Assembly: GCA_000002435.2 (NCBI GenBank)
Contig: CM018793.1
DNA: 64,000 nucleotides
DNA from: Giardia intestinalis
Taxonomy: Eukaryota
Reading direction: 5' to 3' (one strand)
Positions 30,044 to 64,000 of the stretch are shown piece after piece. The position numbers and the translations under genes are program-made. The notes below the pieces were generated by a model, which saw only the letters and a list, made by a program, of their open reading frames with translations, ran no database searches and was not told the DNA's origin. Position 1 is the stretch's first letter; each line of letters opens with the position of its first letter.

Positions 30044-32576
30044 ATATGAGGCTTAGTGCAGGCTGAGGGCGATGCATAGATGCGTGGTCTAACAGGTTAT
30101 CTCATACAGTCGCCGATAATCTGAAATACAGATCCCTATAAGGCTATATGCATATGTACACCGCCCGTCTACATTTCTATGCGTTGGAGATGAACTTTCT
30201 TGCTTATTGTTATCATTATGAAAACAAAGCTGCATAGTGAAGATGGATTTATCAAAGTAGAGGAATTTCACAATAGTGTTGTGATAAGAACACATGAGAT
30301 AGTGATTTTTAATCTAGATAAAGCTGGCTCACTTCCCTAACCAAACCCATAGTATAAGAATGAGCCATATTGAGCATATGCAATAGCTACCAAAACTGAT
30401 ACAACTACTATCAATATGTTCGTTATTGTATGGCGGAGGAATAGATGATCCTGTTCCCCTACTGAAGCGTCTTCTTCTAGATAAGTACCTCCCCCTTGTT
30501 AACCTGATTCTGGCCGGGACAGGAGTGGCCCTCATGAACGGGAACTTCATCGACTACGCTACCATCGACACTGTTTATCTGTGCAGCGAGGACAGAGTGC
30601 TCTTTGTTGTTGACATCGAGAAGAATCGATATTTTTCCTAAATCTTGCATCACGTATATCCTCGCACGTCGAGGGTTCAGCCTGTACCATATGAACGGCT
30701 TGACTGAACGAAAGCGTGTCTTATTAGTAACACTATTTAGTAGTAAATGTTTGTAGACCTCCCCGGCGAAACGCCTTAGGCCAGGGCTTCTGAGCATCGA
30801 CGTGCACCGTCGCACTGATGATGCACAGGAGCATGAGTCTTCTCCAATGACGAGGACAAGCGGACCGAGGAGATGCGTGTGCTCGTGAGCTCCTGGGCTG
30901 GGCTTAGCAGGGTCGGCCGATGGACGTTTGCAATCACAGACCATGACATTGAGAATGCATCTTCAGCGTGTCACAGATAAGCCCTGGTATCCCTGAGCTC
31001 TGGAACTGCAAACCGGATCCCGCGCAGACATGTGGGCGTTGAACTGTATACTGAGCCGCGGACGCTTGCTTTGTTCCTTGATCCTCGGGATTGGATACAT
31101 GGTCACTAGCGATTGACTGTGCTCCCTGCCAAATGCACCAGCTATGCGCCGTCATGGCTGCACATATCCATTCACAGTATGCGATGTGCCTACTATCCGG
31201 GTAGACACTAATCCTTAGTCGCAGAGGCCACTTGCAGATACGCTCAGCCACTGCGGCCTCTGCCTGTATCTGTGTACTGGGGCAGCTCCGTGCATGCCTG
31301 GGCCCTTGTCGTGCAGCTACCCTTTGCCTGCAAGCGTCCACTTGCACATGCTAGCCTGACTGCTGTCGACGCCCCGTGGTCTGGCAAGCAGTTACAATGA
31401 AGGCATAGGCTAATGACCCCTATGTAGTCGTTGACACACGAGTAACAGCTGTGCCGTGCGACTGCAGTCGATTCTCACCATCTACTAGGCACCAAGATGA
31501 AAGTGACGCACTGTGGGACCTACGCCTTTGTGTGCCTTAGATCTACGACCCTCGATCCTAGTGTTGGTTCAGAGGTCTCTTGCTTGACCACAGTGGGGGT
31601 CTTGCAATGGTGTGCACTCAGTCCCCATGGTCAGGACAGGGTGACTGGTATGAGTCGCGACGCATATCCTGCCCATGCTCCGACAAACGGACGCTCCAGA
31701 GGCTCCGAAATACACGGTGCTCTCCTGTTCTGTGGGAATCGGTATGCTCAGGGATACCCGGGACTTGGGTGTGTGTCCGGGTGGGCACCAGGCACTCCGG
31801 CAACACTGGCGGTAGAGTGGGATAGGAGACAGGTGTATTCTGTCGGGTGCTGATGGCAGTGCTCCCGGTGGCCATCCACTACACGTGCCCGTCCGTCTCA
31901 TAAGGCCAGGCTGGCCTGCACAGCCCCCCACTGTGGTCAGCTGATGGGAGACCCAGTGGAAGAGAGCCCTCGGGGACCGGAATCCATGGGAGACGGGTGG
32001 ACTCAGTCACTGGTCATGCAAGGGTTGCCATAGCCCCATCGAGGTCCAGTACCATCACAGCCTGTCACAGGGCGGGTAGAGCTGCACACGACAATGCAGG
32101 GCTCGCTGTCGCTGTGATCATCGTCGGTATCCTCTGCTGGTAGCCATCTATCTACGAACTCTCCAGTGAGTGGCAGATCCCAAAAGGCTAGTAAGAAGCA
32201 AGCATCTGTATACATGCTACTGCATCCCGCATGTTCTCAGTACTGCTGTACACTGGTAGTACGGGAAAGTTTGTAGTTGGGCTCAGATTGAAGAAACGCG
32301 ATCTTCTTTTCCTCCGCCAAAGCTAGATTTATTCTGGCCATAGGATCAAGCTCCGGCAAGGAAGCTGTCCAGTGTGCCAGCTCACTCTGACTGATCCGCT
32401 TGGACAACAACCCGCCGTAGTAAAGTAACGTAAATTGTGTGTCATACTTGGTAGTTCCAATAGAAGGAAAATTCTCTGTCCTAATAACCACAGGACTCCC
32501 ATGAGACATGGAGACAGCTCTTCTTTAATTGAGTCTAGTACAGGCATGCAGTTGAAAAAAGAGGCACTGCTCTGGA

Positions 32577-42844: not shown

Positions 42845-45800
42845 TCATTGCGAAGCATATGTAACTACCGAATTAAAGAGGAGCGTTTCTTCACATCCTC
42901 GAAGCAGCTTTGTACACATGTTCGTGAGATCAACTGGCTCGACAGACACCTGTGTCTCCTGAGCCCCCGCTGCAGGCTTCTTTGCTCCTTGTGGCTTCTT
43001 CTCCTGTGCTGTAGGGGGCTTATTTTTCTTTAGACTTTCATCAATCCTTTGCTTTAAGTGGTCCAAGAGATACAACGTAGTTATAGATGCAATAGTAGTA
43101 GGCGAGAATGGAATCTCGTTCATAACTATAATCCTGGGCCCGGAGGAGAGGAGAGATAGTCGCACTCCAAAGTCTGAATCTATAAATTGCAGGCTTGGCG
43201 ACCGAAGCAGCTCGCGCTTAGATCGCATGTTACTGAACTCAAACTCGGAATGTAGGATAGCGATCTTTTTAACAGCAGCAAGTGTCTTTGGTTTAGCAAT
43301 TACTAGCGACGGTTTGAGGAGTAGACGTGGAGCGGCGAACGAACATATGAATGCTAGGCTATCCTCGTTCAGATACTGCATTATCTCATATGGCACGCTC
43401 GTCAGCGGATTGCCGTGATTAAATACACCTCTAAGGAATGGAATCAGATCTGCGAATGCGAGATTCAGCCCACTCGACAATGCAAAGGAAAGGTCGTCGT
43501 GTACATCGATGCTTGCATTGCCCTTATGACACTCTGACGCAAGAATTTCTGGCTCTATCAGCGTCTCCCTATCCTTAAGCCGTGGAACAATCACACGAAT
43601 ACGTCCAAGATCAGAAAATACAATGTTTAAAAGCACCGCATATGGCAAGCAACACATAGAGTAGTCAGATAATATAAGTGTCAGGGAATGAAGCTCTTTG
43701 TCATCTGCAGACTCTGATGTGGAACCTTCATTAAAAGCACAATTGGCTGTTATTTCCTGTGGCAGCGCACTTCTAAGGTTATCACATAGTGATGTAATTA
43801 TCTCGTGGAGAAGATCGCTGGCCTTTTTCAGGTGAGAAGGAATAAATCCATACAACTCTGCTGTACTAACTAACTTGGCTGACGCTATCGTCTTTGGCGA
43901 CATGGCGGATCTTTGAGAGGTTGCGGAAGATAATGGTCGTATGGTCCTCGAGTTAGACTCCATGGGTGCAGAGTCAGTATCGTTTAATACTTTAGTGTTA
44001 GCTACCTCCGACTGTCCTAGCGCAGAACTAGCACGCGAGCGCGCCGATTTGCGTTTGTAATACAGTCGTGACATACCCTTCCTGATTGACTTTAGATAAG
44101 TGAAGAGATTCTTCAGGATGATTGTTTCTCGATCTGGATCCAGTTCTGCCTCCATCCTGCTCAAAACTGTCTGAAGTTGATTGATGACTGCTGCTGGTAC
44201 GTAGTTCCAGTAGGAAGCCATGAGTCTTCGTGCACAACTATACCAGTCTGTGTAGCGTAGTGATGCTTTTGCAACCTCATCACTAAATGAAGAAGACTCC
44301 GATGTTTCTATAGGCCGGATGGTAACAACGTCCTTTTGAATATAGCATATAATTGTCCACTTTACCATGGGATTTAGTTGAAGATAGATGTCGCTGCCAA
44401 TACTGGCACTAGTGGTGATAATCCTAGACTTTTCTGATATGCCCGGGAGGGCTGATTCGATAGCGGTTAAAAGATCATGCTGTAGCTTAAGATAACGGGC
44501 ATCTAAGCTTGTTATTATTGCCGCTACAGGATCCTGGAATAGTGCTGCAAAAATGTGGGCCCTATCCGGCGAAATAGTTAAGAAATCCGGAGACATGTCT
44601 AGAGAACCATCGGGCAAAAGGATTGATGGTGCTACCTGCTGAGTCTTTCCCTTTGAGTCCTTTCCAGACCCTTGTACCGGTGCTGTGGGCGGTCGTTTGT
44701 GAGTGAAAACATACTCGCCGTGGATCCTGAGAAGGTCGTCGTAATGAGGGTCAAAAAGAGTTAGTGACTGCAAGTCCTGAGCTGAAGATGCGGATACTAT
44801 AATTGGACTGGATGTATGTGCACCTATCAGTAGTTTGTGCCCTATAATCGCCCCACTACTCCATACTATATTTGACAATAGATTTGTGGGTCCTACAAAC
44901 TTCTGTGACTGCATGTAGACGATCTGCGAAAGCATCTGCGATTGCACTTCGGTTAGGATACTCGCCCGTGTAAGATAGAGACAACTGTCAGACAACGACG
45001 GGGAGGTTACTGCTCTGCTAAGGCGGCTGCATATCAAATGGTCAAGAACCTCTAGCACAAAGGGAGCGTGGCTATACGAGGCAGAGATAGAAAGCAACGT
45101 CTGAAGAGAGTCATAAAAAAGCATTAATAAACGAAATTCTCTGGTTGAAAATACCAAATCTATCAGACTAGATGTATTATCAGAGTTGGAAGATTGCTGT
45201 GTCTTCTTTTGCGACGTGGATGCACCCTTTTCAGCTGACCCTACAGCTGCGTCGTCCTTCCGAAGAGAAGAGCTATCTAAAATCTCCTGGACAAAGCTAG
45301 GAATGGAACTGTCTGCCTTCGCAAGGCCATTCAGCAGATCAATATATTTTTGAACAGATTCATCGTGACCATTCATAGCAGAATGCAAGTCCAAGGAACT
45401 CAATAGCGCAATACAGATCAGACGGATTGAATAATGTAACGGATTGGGGGGAGGATACACAACGCTCAGGGAAACATCACGCTCTTGGTCATCCGTACTT
45501 GTACATCTCGATGATATAAATTCCCCGATGTTAATCTCATCTAGCAAGCAGACACCTATCTGTGCAGTGACACGCAGAAATTCTTTAAATCCTTGTCTAT
45601 ATAGTCCTGTGAGTGTCGACAGCGCAAAGATAGCTTGTGGAAGACTGTGGACACCGTACGCCGGGGGGAGCGAATCGCCCTTCTTGTCGACAGCCGCGCC
45701 CGACTTTTTGTCAACATTATTTAGATCTGCAAGGAGACCAGGTAGAGCCTCAGTAAACAGCGGTGCTTCCTTACCATAGCGTGCAACAATTGTATCTACA

Positions 45801-55887: not shown

Positions 55888-58800
55888 ATGACGCAGCCCC
55901 CTGCCTTGTCTACCCTTCAGACCATCCGCACATCAAGGATAAAGGCTGTTGACTTTCACTGCCAGCAACCATGGGTCGTGCAAGGGCTGTTCAGTGGGGA
56001 GCTGGCCCTCTATGACTGGGCAGTAGGAAGAGTCCTTAAGACCATATCTGTTTGTCCGCACCCTATTCGCGCAGTTCGTTTTCTTCCAAAGACTAGTTTT
56101 CTTCTTGTAGGTTCTGATGATGGCGTTCTACGCCTTTATGAATCTGGCTCCCTTCAGAAGCGTGCCGAAGTGACGGCTCATTCTGACTGCATCCGGGCCA
56201 TTGAGATCCATCCTACAAGTGATGAAACCGTCGTATTTACAGGTGGCGATGATGGAGTCATACGTGTCTGGAGTCTCAACAGTCAGGCTACCGGATTTAA
56301 TTTAGAGCAAGAATTGCACGGGCATGCGCACTTCGTGATGTCACTCTGCATAGACCCAGCAGGTCTCAAGCTTATCTCTGGATCGATGGACTCTACAATC
56401 AAAGCGTGGGATGTCAGCCGCCTTGTCAATATGGAGTCATTCCGTGCCAAGGCTACTATAGCCGCAGATGCTCCTGCTGTTGGGGTTCTCCAGACAAACT
56501 TCAGCACCTATACTAATGATGAAGAGGATAGAGGCCTCGCCATGACTTATGCTACTTTGGCGGCACAAGGACTTACAAGGGCAATCGGAACAGTCTTGAA
56601 AAGGGGGAGGGATGACGGGTATACGTCTGCCGATGACATGAAGACTCTTATGCCGAAAGCCACAGCGATTTCGTTGTTTACGTTATTTGGTCACGAGCAA
56701 GGGGTCAATAGCGTGTGCTGGTGCGAGAGTCTCAACAATGATGTTACAAGCAATCCGTATTACACCGGGGGATTGCAGTACATTGCATCAGGATCCGATG
56801 ATACAACTATCAGGATCTGGGACACTCACTCTCGTGCGGTCGTTCGTGAGTTTGACCACCACTCAGCAAGTGTCAGCTGTGTTTCGTATGTTACTGGTTC
56901 TAGCTATCTTCTCGCTGTTGCTGAGGATAATAATCTTTCCATCATTAATACAACGTCCATGACTTTGGAACGCACAATGAACTATAGCCTTGGGAGAATG
57001 TGGGCTGTCTCTTACAATTTTGATGTTTCTGGGGTCTATGCTGCAATTGGCTGTGACCAAGGGCTTGCTGTTGTGAGGATAGGTGAAAGTACTCTTAAAT
57101 ACGCCTCCTATGACGGATCCTCAACTGCTGGACACAGATCTTTTCTAGCAATTGCGGGAACTCCAGTTCCTGGAAGTCGTAGCATAATTCCAGGGCCAGG
57201 AGCTGGCGTAGCATTTTGCACCTTGACAGGCGCTTTAGAGCAAGTGGAATGGAAGACAATTTCACCGGAGGAGACAGGACCTTTTGTAAAGGACTTAACT
57301 TACAGCCCGAACGGTCGCTTCTTGGCCATAACTGGAGACGGTAGCTACGCACTAGTTTCTACAATGTCTCTCAAAAAGAAGATTGTCGGCTCTTGCTATG
57401 CACTCGCTTTTGCGACAGACTGTGAGCCCTTGAATTTTGTTTATAGAGACGACGCGCTGGATGAAAAGGCCTCCAAACTTTTGCTCACTGATCGTGCCGA
57501 AGAGGGGCTATACGCTATTGTTGATGAAAAACGGAGAAGACTGGCAATGCATTCTCTAGCAAAAGAAAATGTGGAGCTATGTTCTTTGAAGCTTATTTAT
57601 ACCGCCCAGACCCTTGTTTCAGGGCCCTTGCTGGCTGTGCTAGCTGAAGATGCTGTTGTATTCTTTGACTGGTCCCGAAGCTTCAAGTTCCTCTGTCAGG
57701 TCAACGTGACGGCAACATCCTTGATTTGGAGTGGCGCTGGAGACATGCTTGCAATCACTTCGCCCGCGGAAACATACATCCTTGGCATAAACTGGGGATA
57801 CATAACTGCAAATATTGATAATGAAGAAGTTTATGATAAGGAAGATGGGTTACTGAATGCGGTAGCTCTTTTGCATGTTATAGACAAGGAAGTAGAGTCC
57901 ATAGCTTTCAACACTGATGGAACCTCCATTCTTTATTGCGTAAGTCTTCGGGGGAGCTCCAGCCAACTAGAAAATTCCACTAGCCTAATTTATCAGATGA
58001 GTACCAAAGAACTTATCTCTTTGGTAAACGTATCATCTGAATCGGCTGGAATATCAATAATGCCGTCTGCCATAGTTGTAGAGGGTGCTAATAGAATATT
58101 GGGCATAGGGCTCGTTCAACCCATTAAAGAAAAGGATGGTGATGTAATTAACTTACAGAATGACCAGATCATTGTACTTGGCACGCCAATACACAATGGA
58201 TCTGGGTCGTTGCATTCTAACACCATAACCCTACTGAACGCTAGGTTAGATAACCGTATGATTAAGTTGAAGCAGCTTCTGCTGGAAAAGAAACTGCAAG
58301 AAGCACTTGAGTTGGCCCGTTGTTTCACAGAAAATACCGTTCCCGCAGCTCACCAACTTATTAAAGCAGGCTTATCTTACGAAGACGTTGAGGGAATTCT
58401 ACATAATGCCGAGCAAAAGAGTCTAATCGCTTCGTATGCTGGTCGTGTGGACATACAGCTTACTCTCTTTCCTAAATCTGCTGATTATGATAGTCCCGAA
58501 GCAAAGCGGAAGATGGGCGACTTGGCCTTTCGTAGTGGCTATTTGGAAGATGCGTATTCTCTATACAAAGACGTGGAAAATTATCCCATGTGCTTTTTGT
58601 GTGCCTATATTGTGGGTAGTGTTGAAAAGCTTAATGAGTTAAGCAGCCTCACTACTGATCTTGCTCTAAAGTATCGCATAGCTTGTGCTATTGGTAATGA
58701 CAAACTAGCCTACCAAGCGCTCGATGGGAGGGCGTGTTCCCCTCCTGAAATGGACGATGATAAACACTGTAAAGGGAACCCGGTCCTTAAGTATATATTT

Positions 58801-58899
58801 GCTGATAACCATGAAAATGTTGCTGATTCCGCAGCGCTTCTCAAAGAGGCTTGTGACTATTTAAAGAAAAGCGGAAGATTGATTACGTTCCAAGGATAA
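55888..58899 (+). CDS. COPB2: Coatomer subunit beta-prime (COPI beta' / COPB2)
   Basis: 1003 aa with a true ATG after ccttaaaaaataaaagattcagtcaga. The N-terminal double WD40 propeller is collinear with COPB2. [27 protein letters not shown] matches [28 protein letters not shown], and [32 protein letters not shown] matches [59 protein letters not shown] and [11 protein letters not shown] correspond likewise. A C-terminal alpha-solenoid follows. Confidence 0.9.
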   Translation: [1003 protein letters not shown]

Positions 58900-59169
58900 T
58901 CCAAAGATTATCTTTTATGCTACAATATTGTGAATATAGTGCTAAGATAATTTTGTCATCGATCGTGCACACCAACAATGACAGTGCGCTCCCCAGTGGG
59001 CCCTGATGCTGAGAAGCGCTTAGGCGCATGGAAACTGGCCCAGTGCCCTCTTGATATCCTTACTCTACAATTGACGCCCGACTCGGCGGCACCATCCTTG
59101 TGCCGGGTCCGAGACTGAGCCGGCGGCTGGCTCTGGAATCGGCCGGGAAGAACAGCCAAAGAGCACAGG

Positions 59170-59871
59170 CTAGTCGGCCCCGCTCAGCCACTGGTTGATA
59201 TAAAGACATTGCTCGGGAGAGATGGCGCTCCCCGGGCCACAAACATACAGGTGAGGGCACTTGCAGCAGGGGGTTGCTGCCACGTGCATGCCCTGGTGTC
59301 CAGGCACCTGGTCGTAGCTCGGGCAGTAGGAGTAGAAGTCGCTGTTGACTGATCGATATGCCGGACCCATGTTTGTGAGCATCTCCACCACAGCGCCATC
59401 TGCTATCAAGGCCCCCACGATCACCCGGACCTCCTCAGGTGTTAGAGTCCCGACCTCGTTCTTCTGAATGGCCTTGCAGATGTCATCGAAGACGACAGGC
59501 GCGCGTCCCACCGCCTTGTACACAAGGGCAGACAGCTTGGAGAGTTCGTCATCGCTGAACCGGCCGGCCAAGGACGAGGAGACGGCGTCGCTGGCCCGGG
59601 AAAGCTCCTTTGGGAAATAGTATCGCGCCTGCTTTTCCTGTACCGAGACTATCAGCTGCCGTGTTTCGAGCTTCTTCAGTGAGTCGGCGACGTTTCCTGC
59701 GGTGTAGCCCCGCCTCTGCAGGACGTCCTTCACCTCAGAGGCCGTGATTCCACGTGTCCGGGCCTTCAGCGAATGCATGCATACGACGACGTAGACATTC
59801 CGGAGATCCGTTTCCTGTAGTCCTGCATAGTTCTTCTTCATGGTTTCTGAAAGCTTCACGTCGGGGGGCAT
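59170..59871 (-). CDS. POLR3F: DNA-directed RNA polymerase III subunit RPC34/RPC6 (POLR3F)
   Basis: About 233 aa from the ATG (MPPDVKLSE) after the A/T box ctgttctaaaaaacca; the track start is TTG 11 codons upstream. It has tandem winged-helix-like segments and the C-terminal Fe-S type cysteine module CCKCPHLYVCGPGSAISPEQCLYINQWL (cf. the RPC6 C-terminus C..CP.F..C....ISP..C.YF..WL, recalled from memory). Confidence 0.72.
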   Translation of the reverse strand: MPPDVKLSETMKKNYAGLQETDLRNVYVVVCMHSLKARTRGITASEVKDVLQRRGYTAGNVADSLKKLETRQLIVSVQEKQARYYFPKELSRASDAVSSSLAGRFSDDELSKLSALVYKAVGRAPVVFDDICKAIQKNEVGTLTPEEVRVIVGALIADGAVVEMLTNMGPAYRSVNSDFYSYCPSYDQVPGHQGMHVAATPCCKCPHLYVCGPGSAISPEQCLYINQWLSGAD

Positions 59872-62800
59872 TGGTTTTTTAGAACAGGTAGTGGAGAGGC
59901 ACAAGCGTGGGCCCTGGACGGTAGCGTGACGACCAGTACTGACACAAAGGCCTTCCAGAAGTTGTGTGGCATTCGGGAGCCATAGGCTGTGCAGGGCGTT
60001 GATCTGTTATCTTGAATGATTGTGCACGCCAGGCTTCTTCAATTAGAATGGTTACTAACATTACAGCTTTCTGCTAGTCGTCCTTTGCAATCCTTCCGTG
60101 ACGGCCTTCATCTGACGCTCTATACAGCTACTCACTGCGGTGATCTCGCAAACCACGTGAAACATATCTGTGCTGCAGTAGAGCCCACCTAGACTACTCC
60201 AGACCAGAATCGCCTTGCCTTGTCCTCAGCTCCAGCGACCATAGGCTTTCCCTAGAAGGCCGACGCATCCTTCCCTACTATCGTGCAGCTGAGGATCACA
60301 TCGGGATACAGCTCTTGTTCTAAGGAAGAGCCGGGCTGCACTTGTCCTGTATACTTGCGCAGCACAGAGAACCCTACAAGTCGTAGTGCTAGGTCGTGTA
60401 GTGCGCTGTTTTGCTTTCTTGCATGGACTGCGGGGCTTATGCAAGAAAGTTGATAGCAAGAAACGTGTACACACTGGTGCTTATATCCTTCTGCTTGATA
60501 CAAGGCAGCAACGACGCGTTTTTGTACACACAGTCTAGGATTAATGGCTAAGTACCTTCACACATTGCGTGCCCTGATTTCTGCTTGCTATGGGCCTGTC
60601 TGAGCTCTACAACCCTCTGCAGAGAGAGCTAATCTACCTAACGTTAGCCAAGGCCGCATTCTGACGCTGATAAGCTGGCCACTGACTCACCAATCAACAG
60701 CACATGCCACCTTGCACTTCTACCCATAGAAGCTGCATCTCGGTGTTCTGCTTAACCATAATGTACGGCCTCTCTGCAAGACACGCGTTCCCTGTCTCGG
60801 CGCAGCCATAGTAGGATCTGTGGTCAAATGCGTAGAAGAACGTACCCAAAAGGTATCGTCTCGGCTCTCCACCTACTGTGATGCGTACTAGCATATGCCA
60901 AGTAACTAGTTCATGCGTATCTGTAAGAGTCTTCAGATACCGCGTAGATATGCGCAGAAGTACTTAACCCTGCCCGTACAGCGCGGCCCCTAGATCACAG
61001 ATCTTTGCAAACAACCTGGACCGCTATCACATGTGCTTCTCCGAGCAAGAAGGCAGTACCTCGGGCTCGCCTAAAAGTAACCGCTATGGATCAGCAATCC
61101 TTTAAGGAGTGTCTCGCTAGCATCACACGTGCCTATTGGTGGGTGGTTTGTACATCCGTGATATGGCTGTTCTTGTACCTCCAATTACTTCGAGAAAGAA
61201 CCAGGGAGCGCTCCTTGCGGATTACAGCCGTGCCACATCAAGCATGCGGCCGCACACCCTTCCAACGTGAGTGACGCACACCGCTGAGACCCATGCACGT
61301 TGCTCCGCGGTGTTGCATTGGCACGCAAGTAGGCTATTCTGAAGACTGCAAACTGTTTCAAGCACCCTGTTACTCCATTCCATATCTTGCAGACGCGCCA
61401 CAGCGGACGCTTTCACAGATGCCTATAGCAGAGGAGCTCCTTCGAAGTAAGGGTTACCTGAAGGTCTTTCTTTATATTGAGGTGACTTGCTAGCCAGCTG
61501 GTATAGGCGTCGAAGGAGCCCCATACCTCGCCTCGGCGATATACCCACCTGCGCACTCGCCGCCCTTCAAGCCTGCCTGCGCTCCCAACGAACTCGGCGA
61601 AGGTGGGCAGCAGGCGCGCTGGGAAAGTTCGGCACCCCGTGTTCCCACGACGTCTCCGATCGCAGTACTGGCGGGGCCTGACGGCGCTTCTCTTCCTAAT
61701 TCGGAACGAGTTAAGGAGTTTCCGCCGTAGGATGGCCGAACTGGCGGTCGGTGGGGCTGTGCAATGCACAAAAGACTTGAGCTTGTAAATTTAGCTTGTT
61801 ACAATTGGTCTATCGCCGGGGCTGTGTACAAGGGCTGACCAATCGAAATGGGATAAGCGGAACGGTCTCTTGCCGAGGAAAAAGATCGCGCCCGAGGCAG
61901 TGCTGGAGTCGTCCTCGAGGGCAAACATCTGGGGACAGCTACCAACATGCGACCCCTGCCAACCAGCACACGGAATTTGGTCGATAAGCTGACTAGGCAG
62001 CATGCATCTAGGGGATTAGCGTTTACCAAAGGACCACGCGCAGTCTCTTGAATAGATGAGATGTCGCGTTTGGGTCGAAGGCAGTTAGGTAGCTTCTAGC
62101 CCCCAGAATGCTAACCAGTGCCCTGTAGGCTGTCTTGCTAGCACTTGCCTTTCTGCACCCACTGATTGCAGTGTGTCGAACGGATAGCTTCTAGAAGGTA
62201 ATGCTAGATTCAGGAGGGATCACCGCGGAGCCCTCCGGCACGTGCTTAGTCAATTAAGGGGTACTACTACGATGTGTATCACATACTATAGCCAGTTACG
62301 CCAGCATGGGAGGCTAGCCATGTCTGGGAAGTAGTAGCTAGTGACACGGTCGACTGCCGGCCATGAGAGCTCCGCGGGGCTGTTCTACTGCGGCTCCATC
62401 CTTACACAGAAGGTGCTGCTATGGGCTAGGATGCGCTGCAGTCCATCAAAACTTGATGGCGAGAGTCTCGATGAAGACGGAGACGTGCGTGTTCTGAGGG
62501 CTGATCCTGCTTCTATTGGTACCTTATCATGCGCTGCTCTCCGTGAAGCAATAGAACTGCATGCCGGGAGCTTCATTTATATGTACACATGACAAAGCAG
62601 GAACAAGTAGTTCTCTTGGCTGCTGATCAATGGCACCTCTGTAGCCTACGTCGATCCGGTGGCGAGCCGGCTATTGAAGCTTCCTGTGTCCAATACTAAT
62701 ACTGCCTACGACGGGCGCCATACTAGCCAAGAATTTGGATAAACAATACCACGATTCATGGGTACGGAGAGTGGCTAGATCGCGTGACTATGCCTTCCAG

Positions 62801-64000
62801 TTCTCTGCTCACCGCTGGCCGCGCACCAGCTATCTTGGATGCCACAAGAAAAGAGATCAAGCGTTATGCTCTCATTACAAGTATCTCTACGTGGCTCAAC
62901 AGAATACCTGCCCTGGCACTGTATGCGTTCTAAGGGCCTCTTACTCAACGAGCAGGACACGGACCCTGTGGTGCTACATCCAGACACAGGAAGGGTGGAG
63001 GCTGACTGCTAGAGACAGTACGGGCCTGCACTGCCTGTCAGGCCAGTCGGATCCTCATGCGCTCTCCGGCCCCTCTGCTGGGCGCTGAGTCCTTGCTAAC
63101 CTTAGTTACACACCGTCCGCGGAAGCACATGCGGCAGACCTCGCGGACATGCAGGTGTGCTCCGAAGTCTAGTAACCTGGGCACAGGATGCTGTGGCCAT
63201 CTGGTTAGTATTACAGCTTCATCCTGGGCGCGTACAGGTGACCCAGATTGGCACGGGACGTACGGGAAACCGACGGAAGCCATCTGGTGGCGGGATGCAC
63301 CACAACCAGCCCCGTCGCCCGATATAAGATACCTCCAGCTGGAAACAAAGTATTCTGTACTGATACGTGCTCGTTCAGAGGTGTGCCCTATTTATCACTT
63401 CCTGCTCGGGTAGTCGGGAGCTAGCTGTTTAGTGCATCTGCCTAAAGCTAAGTAAAGGCAATAGTGGGCACAGCAGCCAAGAACGGCCAATCAGACAGCC
63501 ACCGGACGCACCTCTTCGCTGTTATCATTGTCAAATCTGGAAGCAGCTGGTGCTTTATTGACACACTATGAGTGGCTGCCTGGTCCCAGCCTTCTCCCAT
63601 GTTGCAGCACAATGCCCACACACCGCAAGGGGCGCACAAGTACTCGGTGCGTATGTTACAGGGCTTGTATGATCGTGGATGGCCGACATGAGGCTAATCT
63701 TTTTGCTTCAAGTAACTTGGTTGATGAAGGATATGGAGCTGTGGTCTTCAGGGATAGCCTCTGGTCCATCATTGCGAGATCAGCCATAGATAAGCATGAG
63801 TATATCCAGTCACACCACAGTGGAGCCCTTAGCCAAGGATGGCAAATGCTCAAGGCCCAACGTCCAAGAAAGATATACAAGTGCTCGGTCCCTTCTTCTG
63901 AGAGCCCAGCATCCTCCCAGCGGGTCTGGAGGCCATGGTGCTCTTCATAAGGAAGGGTATAAGAGTCAGACGTAATTGCTGACTAGTCACTGTTCTGAAT

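What the first reader, a model, noticed from the sequence alone, without database searches (positions are those of the whole stretch)
59950..64000. 4-kb ORF-poor GC-rich tail of the window: candidate ncRNA or decayed gene/mobile-element graveyard
After the RPC34 gene (start ~59871) no frame exceeds 140 codons up to the window end. Both strands carry only short, Arg/Pro/Ala-rich overlapping ORFs (e.g. 61413-61769, 61490-61771), which is typical of translated GC-rich non-coding DNA. Given the gene density in the preceding 60 kb, 4 kb without a gene is anomalous. It may continue beyond the window (subtelomeric or VSP-pseudogene zone, retroelement remnant, or a very GC-rich RNA locus).
Basis: seen in the sequence. 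Interest (0 to 1): 0.55.

Follow-up and report, generated by a model that had tools for sequence, protein, structure and literature searches.

The report
5S rRNA gene in gene-poor spacer

Summary
The window is Giardia intestinalis WB. The ORF poverty of 59905-64000 is real. The longest ORF is 140 aa and the longest stop-free run is 161 codons, which is what random sequence of this composition gives. "GC-rich" is only relative: 53% against 47% for the rest of the window. Rfam finds one feature, a full-length 5S rRNA gene at 61624-61743 (-), 86 bits, under the flagged ORFs. Its sequence is identical in an A2 isolate and at three loci with unrelated flanks. The WB copy differs by one wobble-compatible base.

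The rest shows no protein-domain remnant, VSP or kinase similarity, repeat, tRNA, Giardia ncRNA 3' motif, intron signal or telomere repeat. Compared with assemblage E it is collinear but only 76% identical. Substitutions show no codon periodicity and indels are mostly 1-2 nt. It cannot be aligned with assemblage B except at the 5S gene.

In P15 the orthologous spacer abuts a VSP gene, which fits the published note that VSP neighbourhoods are gene-poor. Dispersed 5S genes (8-10 per genome) are already described for WB.

Verdict: an ordinary, known feature. The decayed-gene, VSP-pseudogene and mobile-element reading is not supported. Side observations: RPC34 is duplicated, and the 5S-RPC34 linkage is conserved.

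The parts
59905..64000 (.). ORF-poor, fast-evolving non-coding spacer. It runs off the window. The orthologous spacer in P15 is about 4.5 kb, from the VSP stop codon to the RPC34 start.
   Evidence: ORF lists. ORF lengths equal the random expectation. No Pfam hit in six frames. WB-P15 identity is 75.7%, substitutions show no 3-periodicity (p=0.57), and 59 indels include only 4 that are multiples of 3. The stretch is collinear in DHA2 at 98.6% and in P15 at 77%. It cannot be aligned with assemblage B.
61624..61743 (-). 5S ribosomal RNA gene, full length, one of the dispersed copies of Giardia.
   Evidence: Rfam RF00001 at 86.2 bits (gathering score 38), model positions 1-120, E=4e-18. The MFE fold gives the three-way junction, -48.7 kcal/mol, z=-2.85. 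The gene body is identical in DHA2, L024, L032, L033 and L034 although the flanks are unrelated. The WB copy differs only at window 61696 (position 48, A->G, U-A to U.G).
61744..61775 (-). Proximal upstream flank of the 5S gene, a candidate external promoter region. This is inferred only.
   Evidence: In alignment A3, TCT at -32..-30 is invariant in all five contexts. 'GCACAGCCCCAyC' at about -25..-10 is shared by this locus and the unrelated locus L034, but not by L024. The T-run at -30..-27 is present in WB, DHA2 and L024, and absent in L034 and in the degenerate P15 copy. No firm motif emerges.
59170..59871 (-). RNA polymerase III subunit C34 (RPC34) gene, the left boundary of the spacer.
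   Evidence: Exact match to KAE8305907.1 / XP_001707501.1, with Pfam PF05158. Codon periodicity of WB-P15 substitutions is p=2e-13.
59125..60307 (.). Approximate extent of the duplicated RPC34 unit (copy a, on the coatomer side). The spacer proper is outside it.
   Evidence: Ten short-read assemblies end at 60307 and others end at 59130. The a and b copies are 99.3% identical over 1249 nt in assemblage B and 99.0% over 409 nt in DHA2. They are 100% identical over the 378 nt available in P15. A cluster of variants lies at 60371-60512 in contig L012.

Best explanation
The tail is a long, essentially unconstrained intergenic spacer of the kind found next to VSP genes in Giardia. It carries one functional-looking dispersed 5S rRNA gene at 61624-61743 on the minus strand, 1.75 kb upstream of the RPC34 gene and in the same orientation.

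The 5S gene is presumably transcribed by RNA polymerase III from an external upstream element. Giardia 5S genes lack the internal control region and TFIIIA (PMC3369914). Transcription would end at or near the invariant GAACTTT/C. The RNA folds into the standard three-way junction and enters the large ribosomal subunit.

The 'Arg/Pro/Ala-rich overlapping ORFs' are chance reading frames. Three of the six frames of the 59% GC gene are stop-free.

The remaining 3.9 kb or so has no detectable coding or structured-RNA content and drifts at least as fast as synonymous sites.

What is shown: the identity, integrity and conservation of the 5S gene, and the non-coding mode of evolution of the rest. What is inferred: expression of this particular copy, the nature of its promoter, and that a VSP gene follows beyond 64000 in WB as it does in P15.
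For: 5S gene:
- Rfam gives 86.2 bits over the full model and the fold is canonical.
- The gene body is 100% identical in A2 (L011), L024, L032, L033 and L034, while the flanks are unalignable.
- A short-read contig (L012) stops 29 nt into the 3' end of the gene. This is expected at the edge of a dispersed repeat with k=31.

Spacer:
- Random-like ORF lengths and no Pfam hits.
- No VSP, kinase or other protein similarity.
- The longest frame has no homologues apart from itself.
- No other Rfam family at E<=1 and no tRNA.
- No Giardia ncRNA 3'-processing motif (motif from PMC3510501), and the intron 3' signal is at chance level.
- WB-P15 identity is 75.7%, against 85.9% at RPC34 third codon positions. 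There is no periodicity, and indels are mostly 1-2 nt.
- Nothing aligns with assemblage B between the 5S gene and RPC34.

Context and literature:
- The P15 orthologue lies between a VSP gene and RPC34.
- The literature reports 8-10 dispersed 5S genes in WB, and gene-poor regions around VSPs with more allelic variation (PMC3369914, PMC7000408).
Against: - No expression data could be consulted. Transcription of this copy, which carries one substitution at position 48, is unproven. The published RT-PCR cannot tell near-identical copies apart.
- The orthologous copy in P15 is degenerate: 54 bits, 12 substitutions and a 9-nt insertion in the helix III/loop C region. The locus is therefore dispensable in at least one lineage.
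- 53% GC is higher than in Giardia's usual AT-rich spacers. That would also fit very old, fully decayed coding sequence.
- Some 100-nt windows reach 86-89% identity between WB and P15. These were not explained individually.
- The sequence beyond 64000 in WB was not obtained.
Confidence: 0.85

Rival explanations
1. Graveyard reading: the tail is the remains of one or more decayed genes (VSP/HCMP pseudogenes, NEK kinases) or of a retroelement (GilM/GilT/GilD). The 5S gene is a passenger.
For: - GC of 53% resembles coding rather than ordinary spacer DNA.
- In P15 the spacer abuts a VSP gene.
- The RPC34 neighbourhood is recombinogenic, with duplicated and truncated RPC34 copies next to VSPs.
- Xu et al. 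annotate 306 pseudogenes, 208 of them pseudo-VSPs, often in arrays (PMC7000408).
Against: - No Pfam domain, including VSP PF03302 and reverse transcriptase families, in any frame at E<=1.
- tblastn with neighbouring VSPs and kinases and about 120 other VSPs gives nothing below E=0.005.
- No repeats.
- No residual codon periodicity in the WB-P15 substitutions.
- ORF lengths are random.
Confidence: 0.08
2. The tail encodes additional functional non-coding RNA, either a long non-coding transcript or small snoRNA-like genes that Rfam does not cover.
For: - A few 100-nt windows are 86-89% identical between WB and P15, against a 76% background: 61068-61150, 60671-60772 and 61301-61447.
- Giardia ncRNA genes lie in intergenic regions (PMC3510501).
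Against: - No Rfam hit at E<=1 other than 5S.
- No instance of the 12-nt ncRNA 3'-end motif in the tail.
- Nothing between the 5S gene and RPC34 aligns with assemblage B, even with word size 7. Known Giardia ncRNAs are conserved across WB, GS and P15 (PMC3510501).
- The peaks are within about 3 SD of the background, among about 80 windows.
Confidence: 0.05
3. A protein-coding gene is present but hidden, either interrupted by introns or trans-spliced, or formed by one of the short ORFs.
For: Giardia has a few cis- and trans-spliced genes. The longest frame, 63465-63947, is 161 codons.
Against: - The intron 3' motif CTRACACRCAG occurs at chance frequency, and no exact match lies in the tail.
- The trans-intron/ncRNA motif is absent.
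- No homologue of the longest frame turned up among 1.8 billion representatives, apart from the same locus and a chance match to a bacterial repeat protein.
- Frameshifting indels and the lack of periodicity against P15 argue against coding.
- P15 and DHA2 have no long ORF here either.
Confidence: 0.02

Closest known systems
Dispersed 5S rRNA genes of Giardia intestinalis (8 in the 2007 WB assembly, r0002...r0026; 10 in the 2020 assembly; Feng et al. 2012, PMC3369914; Xu et al. 2020, PMC7000408)
   Same: - Single, non-tandem copy at an internal chromosomal site, far from the 18S-5.8S-28S units.
- Normal length with no insertion.
- The sequence is essentially the canonical one shared across assemblages.
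- AT-containing upstream flank, and no eukaryote-type tandem array.
   Different: - Nothing essential differs. This copy carries one substitution (position 48, A->G) relative to the sequence found in A2 and in three other loci.
- I could not map it to a specific r-number or see the GenBank feature table. That it is one of the annotated ten is therefore an inference.
Gene-poor, variation-rich regions flanking VSP genes in the WB genome (Xu et al. 2020)
   Same: - A long stretch without ORFs in an otherwise 81% coding genome.
- The P15 orthologue directly abuts the 3' end of a VSP gene.
- Divergence is higher (1.3% WB-DHA2 against 0.4% in RPC34), with a cluster of variants at 60371-60512.
- Short-read assemblies break here.
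   Different: The VSP neighbour is shown only in P15. No VSP or pseudo-VSP sequence lies inside the window.
Rfam RF00001 (5S_rRNA)
   Same: Full-length match at more than twice the gathering score, with all five helices.
   Different: None relevant.

Membership tests
5S rRNA (Rfam RF00001) | Covariance-model score at or above the curated gathering score (38 bits) over the full model | tested here: met
   86.2 bits, model positions 1-120 of 120, not truncated.
5S rRNA (Rfam RF00001) | Three-way junction with helices I, II-III and IV-V | tested here: met
   The CM structure line is satisfied. An independent MFE fold gives the same architecture, -48.7 kcal/mol, z=-2.85.
5S rRNA (Rfam RF00001) | Purifying selection: gene body conserved while the flanks diverge | tested here: met
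   120/120 identical in DHA2, L024, L032, L033 and L034, with unrelated or unalignable flanks. The WB copy is 119/120.
5S rRNA (Rfam RF00001) | Transcribed by Pol III and incorporated into the ribosome | not testable with these tools
   The literature reports RT-PCR products from the 117-bp genes of WB (PMC3369914). That assay does not separate copies.
Functional copy at this locus in all assemblages | The orthologous copy is intact in other assemblages | tested here: inconclusive
   Intact in A2 (88.3 bits). Degenerate in P15: 54.3 bits, 12 substitutions and a 9-nt insertion. Present upstream of RPC34 in a B-like lineage (L024 overlaps L019).
VSP / HCMP gene or pseudogene | Similarity to the VSP family (PF03302, CXXC-rich repeats, conserved C-terminal tail) | tested here: not met
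   No Pfam hit in six frames at E<=1. tblastn with four neighbouring VSPs and about 120 fetched VSPs gives no hit below E=0.005.
Non-LTR retroelement remnant (GilM/GilT/GilD) | Reverse transcriptase or endonuclease domain remnant | tested here: not met
   No RVT or other Pfam domain in six frames.
Non-LTR retroelement remnant (GilM/GilT/GilD) | Nucleotide similarity to the GilM/T/D consensus sequences | not tested
Subtelomeric region | Telomere repeat (TAGGG)n or rDNA units nearby | tested here: not met
   No TAGGG array with up to 2 mismatches. No 18S, 5.8S or 28S hit in the window.
Giardia snoRNA/snRNA-type ncRNA genes and trans-intron halves | 12-nt 3'-end processing motif HCMTTYHHTHAA (PMC3510501) | tested here: not met
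   One match in the whole window, at 43724 inside a long ORF, and none in the tail. Chance expectation is 3.5.

The most novel reading that the evidence does not exclude
The VSP-spacer-5S-RPC34 block could be a recombination module. RPC34 exists as two near-identical copies in every assemblage, one next to coatomer beta' and one next to poly(A) polymerase. The 5S-bearing spacer is joined to the coatomer-side copy in assemblage A (WB, DHA2), but to the poly(A)-polymerase-side copy in E (P15) and B.

Two independent metagenome contigs join this locus's 5S upstream half to the downstream half of another 5S locus, exactly at the end of the gene. If these joins are real rather than assembly errors, two things would follow. 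The RPC34 repeats would flip or exchange a segment that contains a surface-antigen gene and a Pol III gene. The dispersed 5S copies would act as breakpoints for ectopic recombination.
Probability: 0.15. Interest if true: 0.4.

Novelty: already known. Interest (0 to 1): 0.12.

Why it matters
It matters little beyond clean annotation. The flagged 'odd ORFs' are a textbook example of spurious reading frames across a GC-rich structured RNA gene, and the surrounding emptiness is a known property of VSP neighbourhoods in Giardia.

A few minor points may be useful to specialists:
- This 5S copy lies 1.75 kb upstream of a gene for a Pol III-specific subunit, and the linkage holds in assemblages A and E and a B-like lineage.
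- The orthologous copy has decayed in P15.
- The WB copy carries a diagnostic G at position 48 that would allow copy-specific expression tests.
- The duplicated RPC34 unit and the 5S copies mark places where draft assemblies, or the genomes themselves, are rearranged.

Tried and rejected
- Repeats: in-window direct and inverted repeats and tandem repeats gave nothing. tRNA scan gave none.
- Rfam: at E<=1 in the tail and at E<=10 around the 5S gene, only chance-level mir-885 and WT1-AS hits.
- Protein domains: six-frame Pfam scan negative.
- Protein similarity: tblastn with VSPs and kinases from the orthologous loci and all 157 fetched proteins negative.
- Longest frame: an exhaustive HMMER search of 63465-63947 found only the same locus (P0158) and a bacterial repeat protein whose repeats inflate a chance match.
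- Sequence motifs: Giardia intron 3' motif, ncRNA 3' motif and telomere repeat were all negative or at chance. The bacterial promoter/terminator scan is irrelevant for a eukaryote.
- Extending the WB sequence beyond 64000 failed. The DHA2 contig ends at 63889.
- Identifying the gene between the two RPC34 copies (KAE8305908) failed. None of six WB VSPs on the same chromosome carries that accession. The closest A2 VSP lies at an unrelated locus.
- Two metagenome scans for the 5S sequence found nothing.
- A shared 5S promoter motif (T-run at -30..-27) looked promising with two lineages but did not hold at a third locus.
- The inversion hypothesis for the RPC34 repeats could not be resolved with draft assemblies.
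Full report
**Identity of the window and check of the observation**

The two genes to the left of the finding translate to proteins that match Giardia intestinalis WB exactly. These are RNA polymerase III subunit C34 (59170-59871, minus strand; KAE8305907.1 and XP_001707501.1) and coatomer beta' (55888-58899, plus strand; KAE8305906.1).

The longest stop-free frame is 161 codons. The ORFs at 61413-61769 and 61490-61771 exist as described. First-order Markov simulations of the same composition give a longest stop-free run of 137 +/- 28 codons, and 15% reach 161. The ORF content is therefore what non-coding DNA gives by chance.

The tail is the longest ORF-free stretch in the window. A second stretch, 30044-32576, is 2.5 kb.

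'GC-rich' holds only in relative terms. The tail is 53.0% GC. The rest of the window is 47.1%, its short spacers are 29-47%, and third codon positions are 48.6%. The only real peak (57-59%) lies at 61250-62000.

**What is there: a 5S rRNA gene**

A scan of the whole window against Rfam gave one match above threshold. It is 5S rRNA at 61624-61743 on the minus strand, at 86.2 bits against a gathering score of 38, and it covers model positions 1-120. The RNA folds on its own into the canonical three-way junction (-48.7 kcal/mol, z = -2.85).

The gene sits under the 'Arg/Pro/Ala-rich overlapping ORFs'. Three of its six frames are stop-free, which is why both strands show overlapping ORFs there.

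I recovered other copies by searching for spurious ORFs called across 5S genes and fetching their contigs. The 120-nt gene body is identical in:
- the A2 isolate DHA2, at the orthologous locus L011;
- a B-like metagenome contig, L024;
- an unrelated locus on a 106-kb contig, L034;
- two further metagenome contigs, L032 and L033.

The flanks of these copies are unrelated or cannot be aligned. The WB copy differs at one base, window 61696 (position 48, A to G), which turns a U-A pair into U.G.

A short-read contig from the RPC34 side (L012) stops 29 nt inside the 3' end of the gene. This is expected at the edge of a dispersed repeat in a k=31 graph.

The orthologous copy in assemblage E (P15, L017 8000-8128) is degenerate. 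It scores 54.3 bits, with 12 substitutions and a 9-nt insertion in the helix III/loop C region.

**What the rest is: unconstrained spacer**

Every search of the remaining sequence was negative:
- No Pfam domain appears in any of the six frames at E<=1.
- tblastn with the VSPs and kinases of the orthologous loci and with about 120 other VSPs finds nothing.
- The longest frame has no homologue among 1.8 billion representatives, apart from its own locus and a chance match to a bacterial repeat protein.
- There are no repeats, tandem repeats or tRNAs.
- No other Rfam family reaches E<=1.
- The 12-nt Giardia ncRNA/trans-intron 3' motif (PMC3510501) does not occur.
- The intron 3' signal is at chance level.
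- There is no telomere repeat.

Comparative data agree with this:
- The tail is collinear with DHA2 at 98.6% up to that contig's end at 63889. It is collinear with P15 over 59122-63952.
- In a WB-P15 alignment the tail is 75.7% identical, below the 85.9% seen at RPC34 third codon positions.
- Substitutions are spread evenly over the three phases (p = 0.57). RPC34, as a control, gives p = 2e-13.
- Of 59 indels, only 4 are multiples of three.
- P15 and DHA2 have no long ORF there either.
- Between the 5S gene and RPC34 nothing aligns with assemblage B, even with 7-nt words.

A few 100-nt windows reach 86-89% identity between WB and P15. They lie within about 3 SD of the background and have no counterpart in B.

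**Context**

In P15 the orthologous spacer runs from about 380 nt past the stop codon of a VSP gene (L017 3489-5516) to RPC34 (10001), roughly 4.5 kb. The WB spacer therefore probably continues a few hundred bases beyond the window and ends at a VSP or a related gene. I could not retrieve the WB sequence to confirm this.

Xu et al. (PMC7000408) state that regions around VSPs are gene-poor and carry more allelic variation. They also report that the new WB assembly has ten 5S genes at internal positions, predicted with RNAmmer. Feng et al. (PMC3369914) describe eight dispersed, non-tandem 5S genes of 117 bp in WB. According to that paper the genes lack an internal control region and TFIIIA, and RT-PCR products come only from the normal-length copies. 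The gene found here fits that description and is almost certainly one of the annotated copies. This last point is an inference, because I could not see the feature table.

**How it most likely works**

This copy is a stand-alone Pol III unit. In the upstream flank, only TCT at -32..-30 is invariant across all contexts. A 'GCACAGCCCCAyC' box at about -25..-10 is shared with the unrelated locus L034 but not with L024. A T-run at -30..-27 is present in WB, DHA2 and L024, but absent in L034 and in the decayed P15 copy. I therefore cannot name a promoter motif with confidence. Downstream, GAACTTT followed by C is invariant, and similarity then stops.

Expression of this specific copy is not shown. 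The G48 variant would allow a copy-specific test.

**Side observations**

RPC34 is duplicated in every assemblage examined. One copy lies next to coatomer beta' and one next to poly(A) polymerase.
- The two copies are 99.3% identical over 1249 nt in assemblage B, and 99.0% over 409 nt in DHA2.
- They are 100% identical over the 378 nt available in P15.
- P15 also has a third, truncated copy next to another VSP.
- In WB the unit spans about 59125-60307. Short-read assemblies end at 59130 and at 60307, and a cluster of variants follows at 60371-60512.

The 5S-bearing spacer is attached to the coatomer-side copy in WB and DHA2. It is attached to the poly(A)-polymerase-side copy in P15 and, through the L024-L019 overlap, in B. 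This could reflect an inversion between inverted repeats, repeat arms longer than I could see, or mis-joins in draft assemblies.

Two independent metagenome contigs (L032, L033) carry this locus's 5S upstream flank and gene, but switch to the downstream flank of another 5S locus exactly at the gene's 3' end. These are either assembler chimeras or real recombinants.

Two 5S loci, L017 and L034, each lie 1.3-2.5 kb downstream of a VSP 3' end.

**Verdict**

The decayed-gene, mobile-element and VSP-pseudogene reading is not supported. What is there is a known kind of feature in a known kind of region, so interest is low.

Noticed in passing
window 30044-32576: A second ORF-poor stretch (2.5 kb, 51% GC) lies between the 1069-aa and 3417-aa ORFs. 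It has only ORFs of 155 aa or less. There is no Rfam hit at E<=1 except a sub-threshold Hammerhead_II (20.5 bits against 37), and no ncRNA 3' motif.
   Followed up: partly
window 59125-60307; L017, L018, L019-L023, L031: RPC34 is duplicated in assemblages A, B and E, with one copy next to coatomer beta' and one next to poly(A) polymerase. The copies are 99-100% identical, which suggests gene conversion. P15 has a third, truncated copy fused to other sequence next to a VSP (L018 5743-6771). Short-read assemblies break at both ends of the unit.
   Followed up: partly
window 59905-64000 vs L017 5517-10000 and L019 1-1230 / L024: The 5S-bearing spacer is joined to the coatomer-side RPC34 copy in WB and DHA2, but to the poly(A)-polymerase-side copy in P15 and in a B lineage. 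The cause could be an inversion between inverted RPC34 repeats, longer repeat arms, or draft-assembly mis-joins.
   Followed up: partly
L032 1-2209 and L033 1-1515 (window 61623-62258): Two independent metagenome contigs are 100% identical to DHA2 over the 5S gene plus 514 nt upstream. They leave the window's sequence exactly at the 5S 3' end and continue into the downstream flank of another 5S locus (88% to L034 3775-3925). They are either chimeras through the 120-nt repeat or real ectopic recombinants or duplicates.
   Followed up: partly
L017 8000-8128 (orthologue of window 61624-61743): The P15 (assemblage E) orthologue of this 5S gene is degenerate: 12 substitutions, a 9-nt insertion in helix III/loop C, and 54 bits against 88. 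It is probably a lineage-specific pseudogene.
   Followed up: yes
L034 6103-6222 and 7540-7577; L017 3489-5516 and 8000-8128: At two different 5S loci the gene lies 1.3-2.5 kb downstream of the 3' end of a VSP gene, in the same orientation. This hints that dispersed 5S genes may tend to sit in VSP-flanking gene-poor DNA, but it rests on two loci only.
   Followed up: no
window 60371-60512: There is a cluster of 14 differences between the window and an otherwise identical A-type short-read contig (L012). It lies just outside the RPC34 repeat unit, and other assemblies break at 60307, 60421 and 60454. This looks like a local hotspot of allelic or strain variation.
   Followed up: partly
window 59872-59904: Gene callers disagree on the RPC34 start. 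The models are 233 aa (ATG at 59871), 244 aa (TTG at 59904, used for DHA2_121062), and 264-285 aa in assemblage B and some Logan contigs.
   Followed up: no
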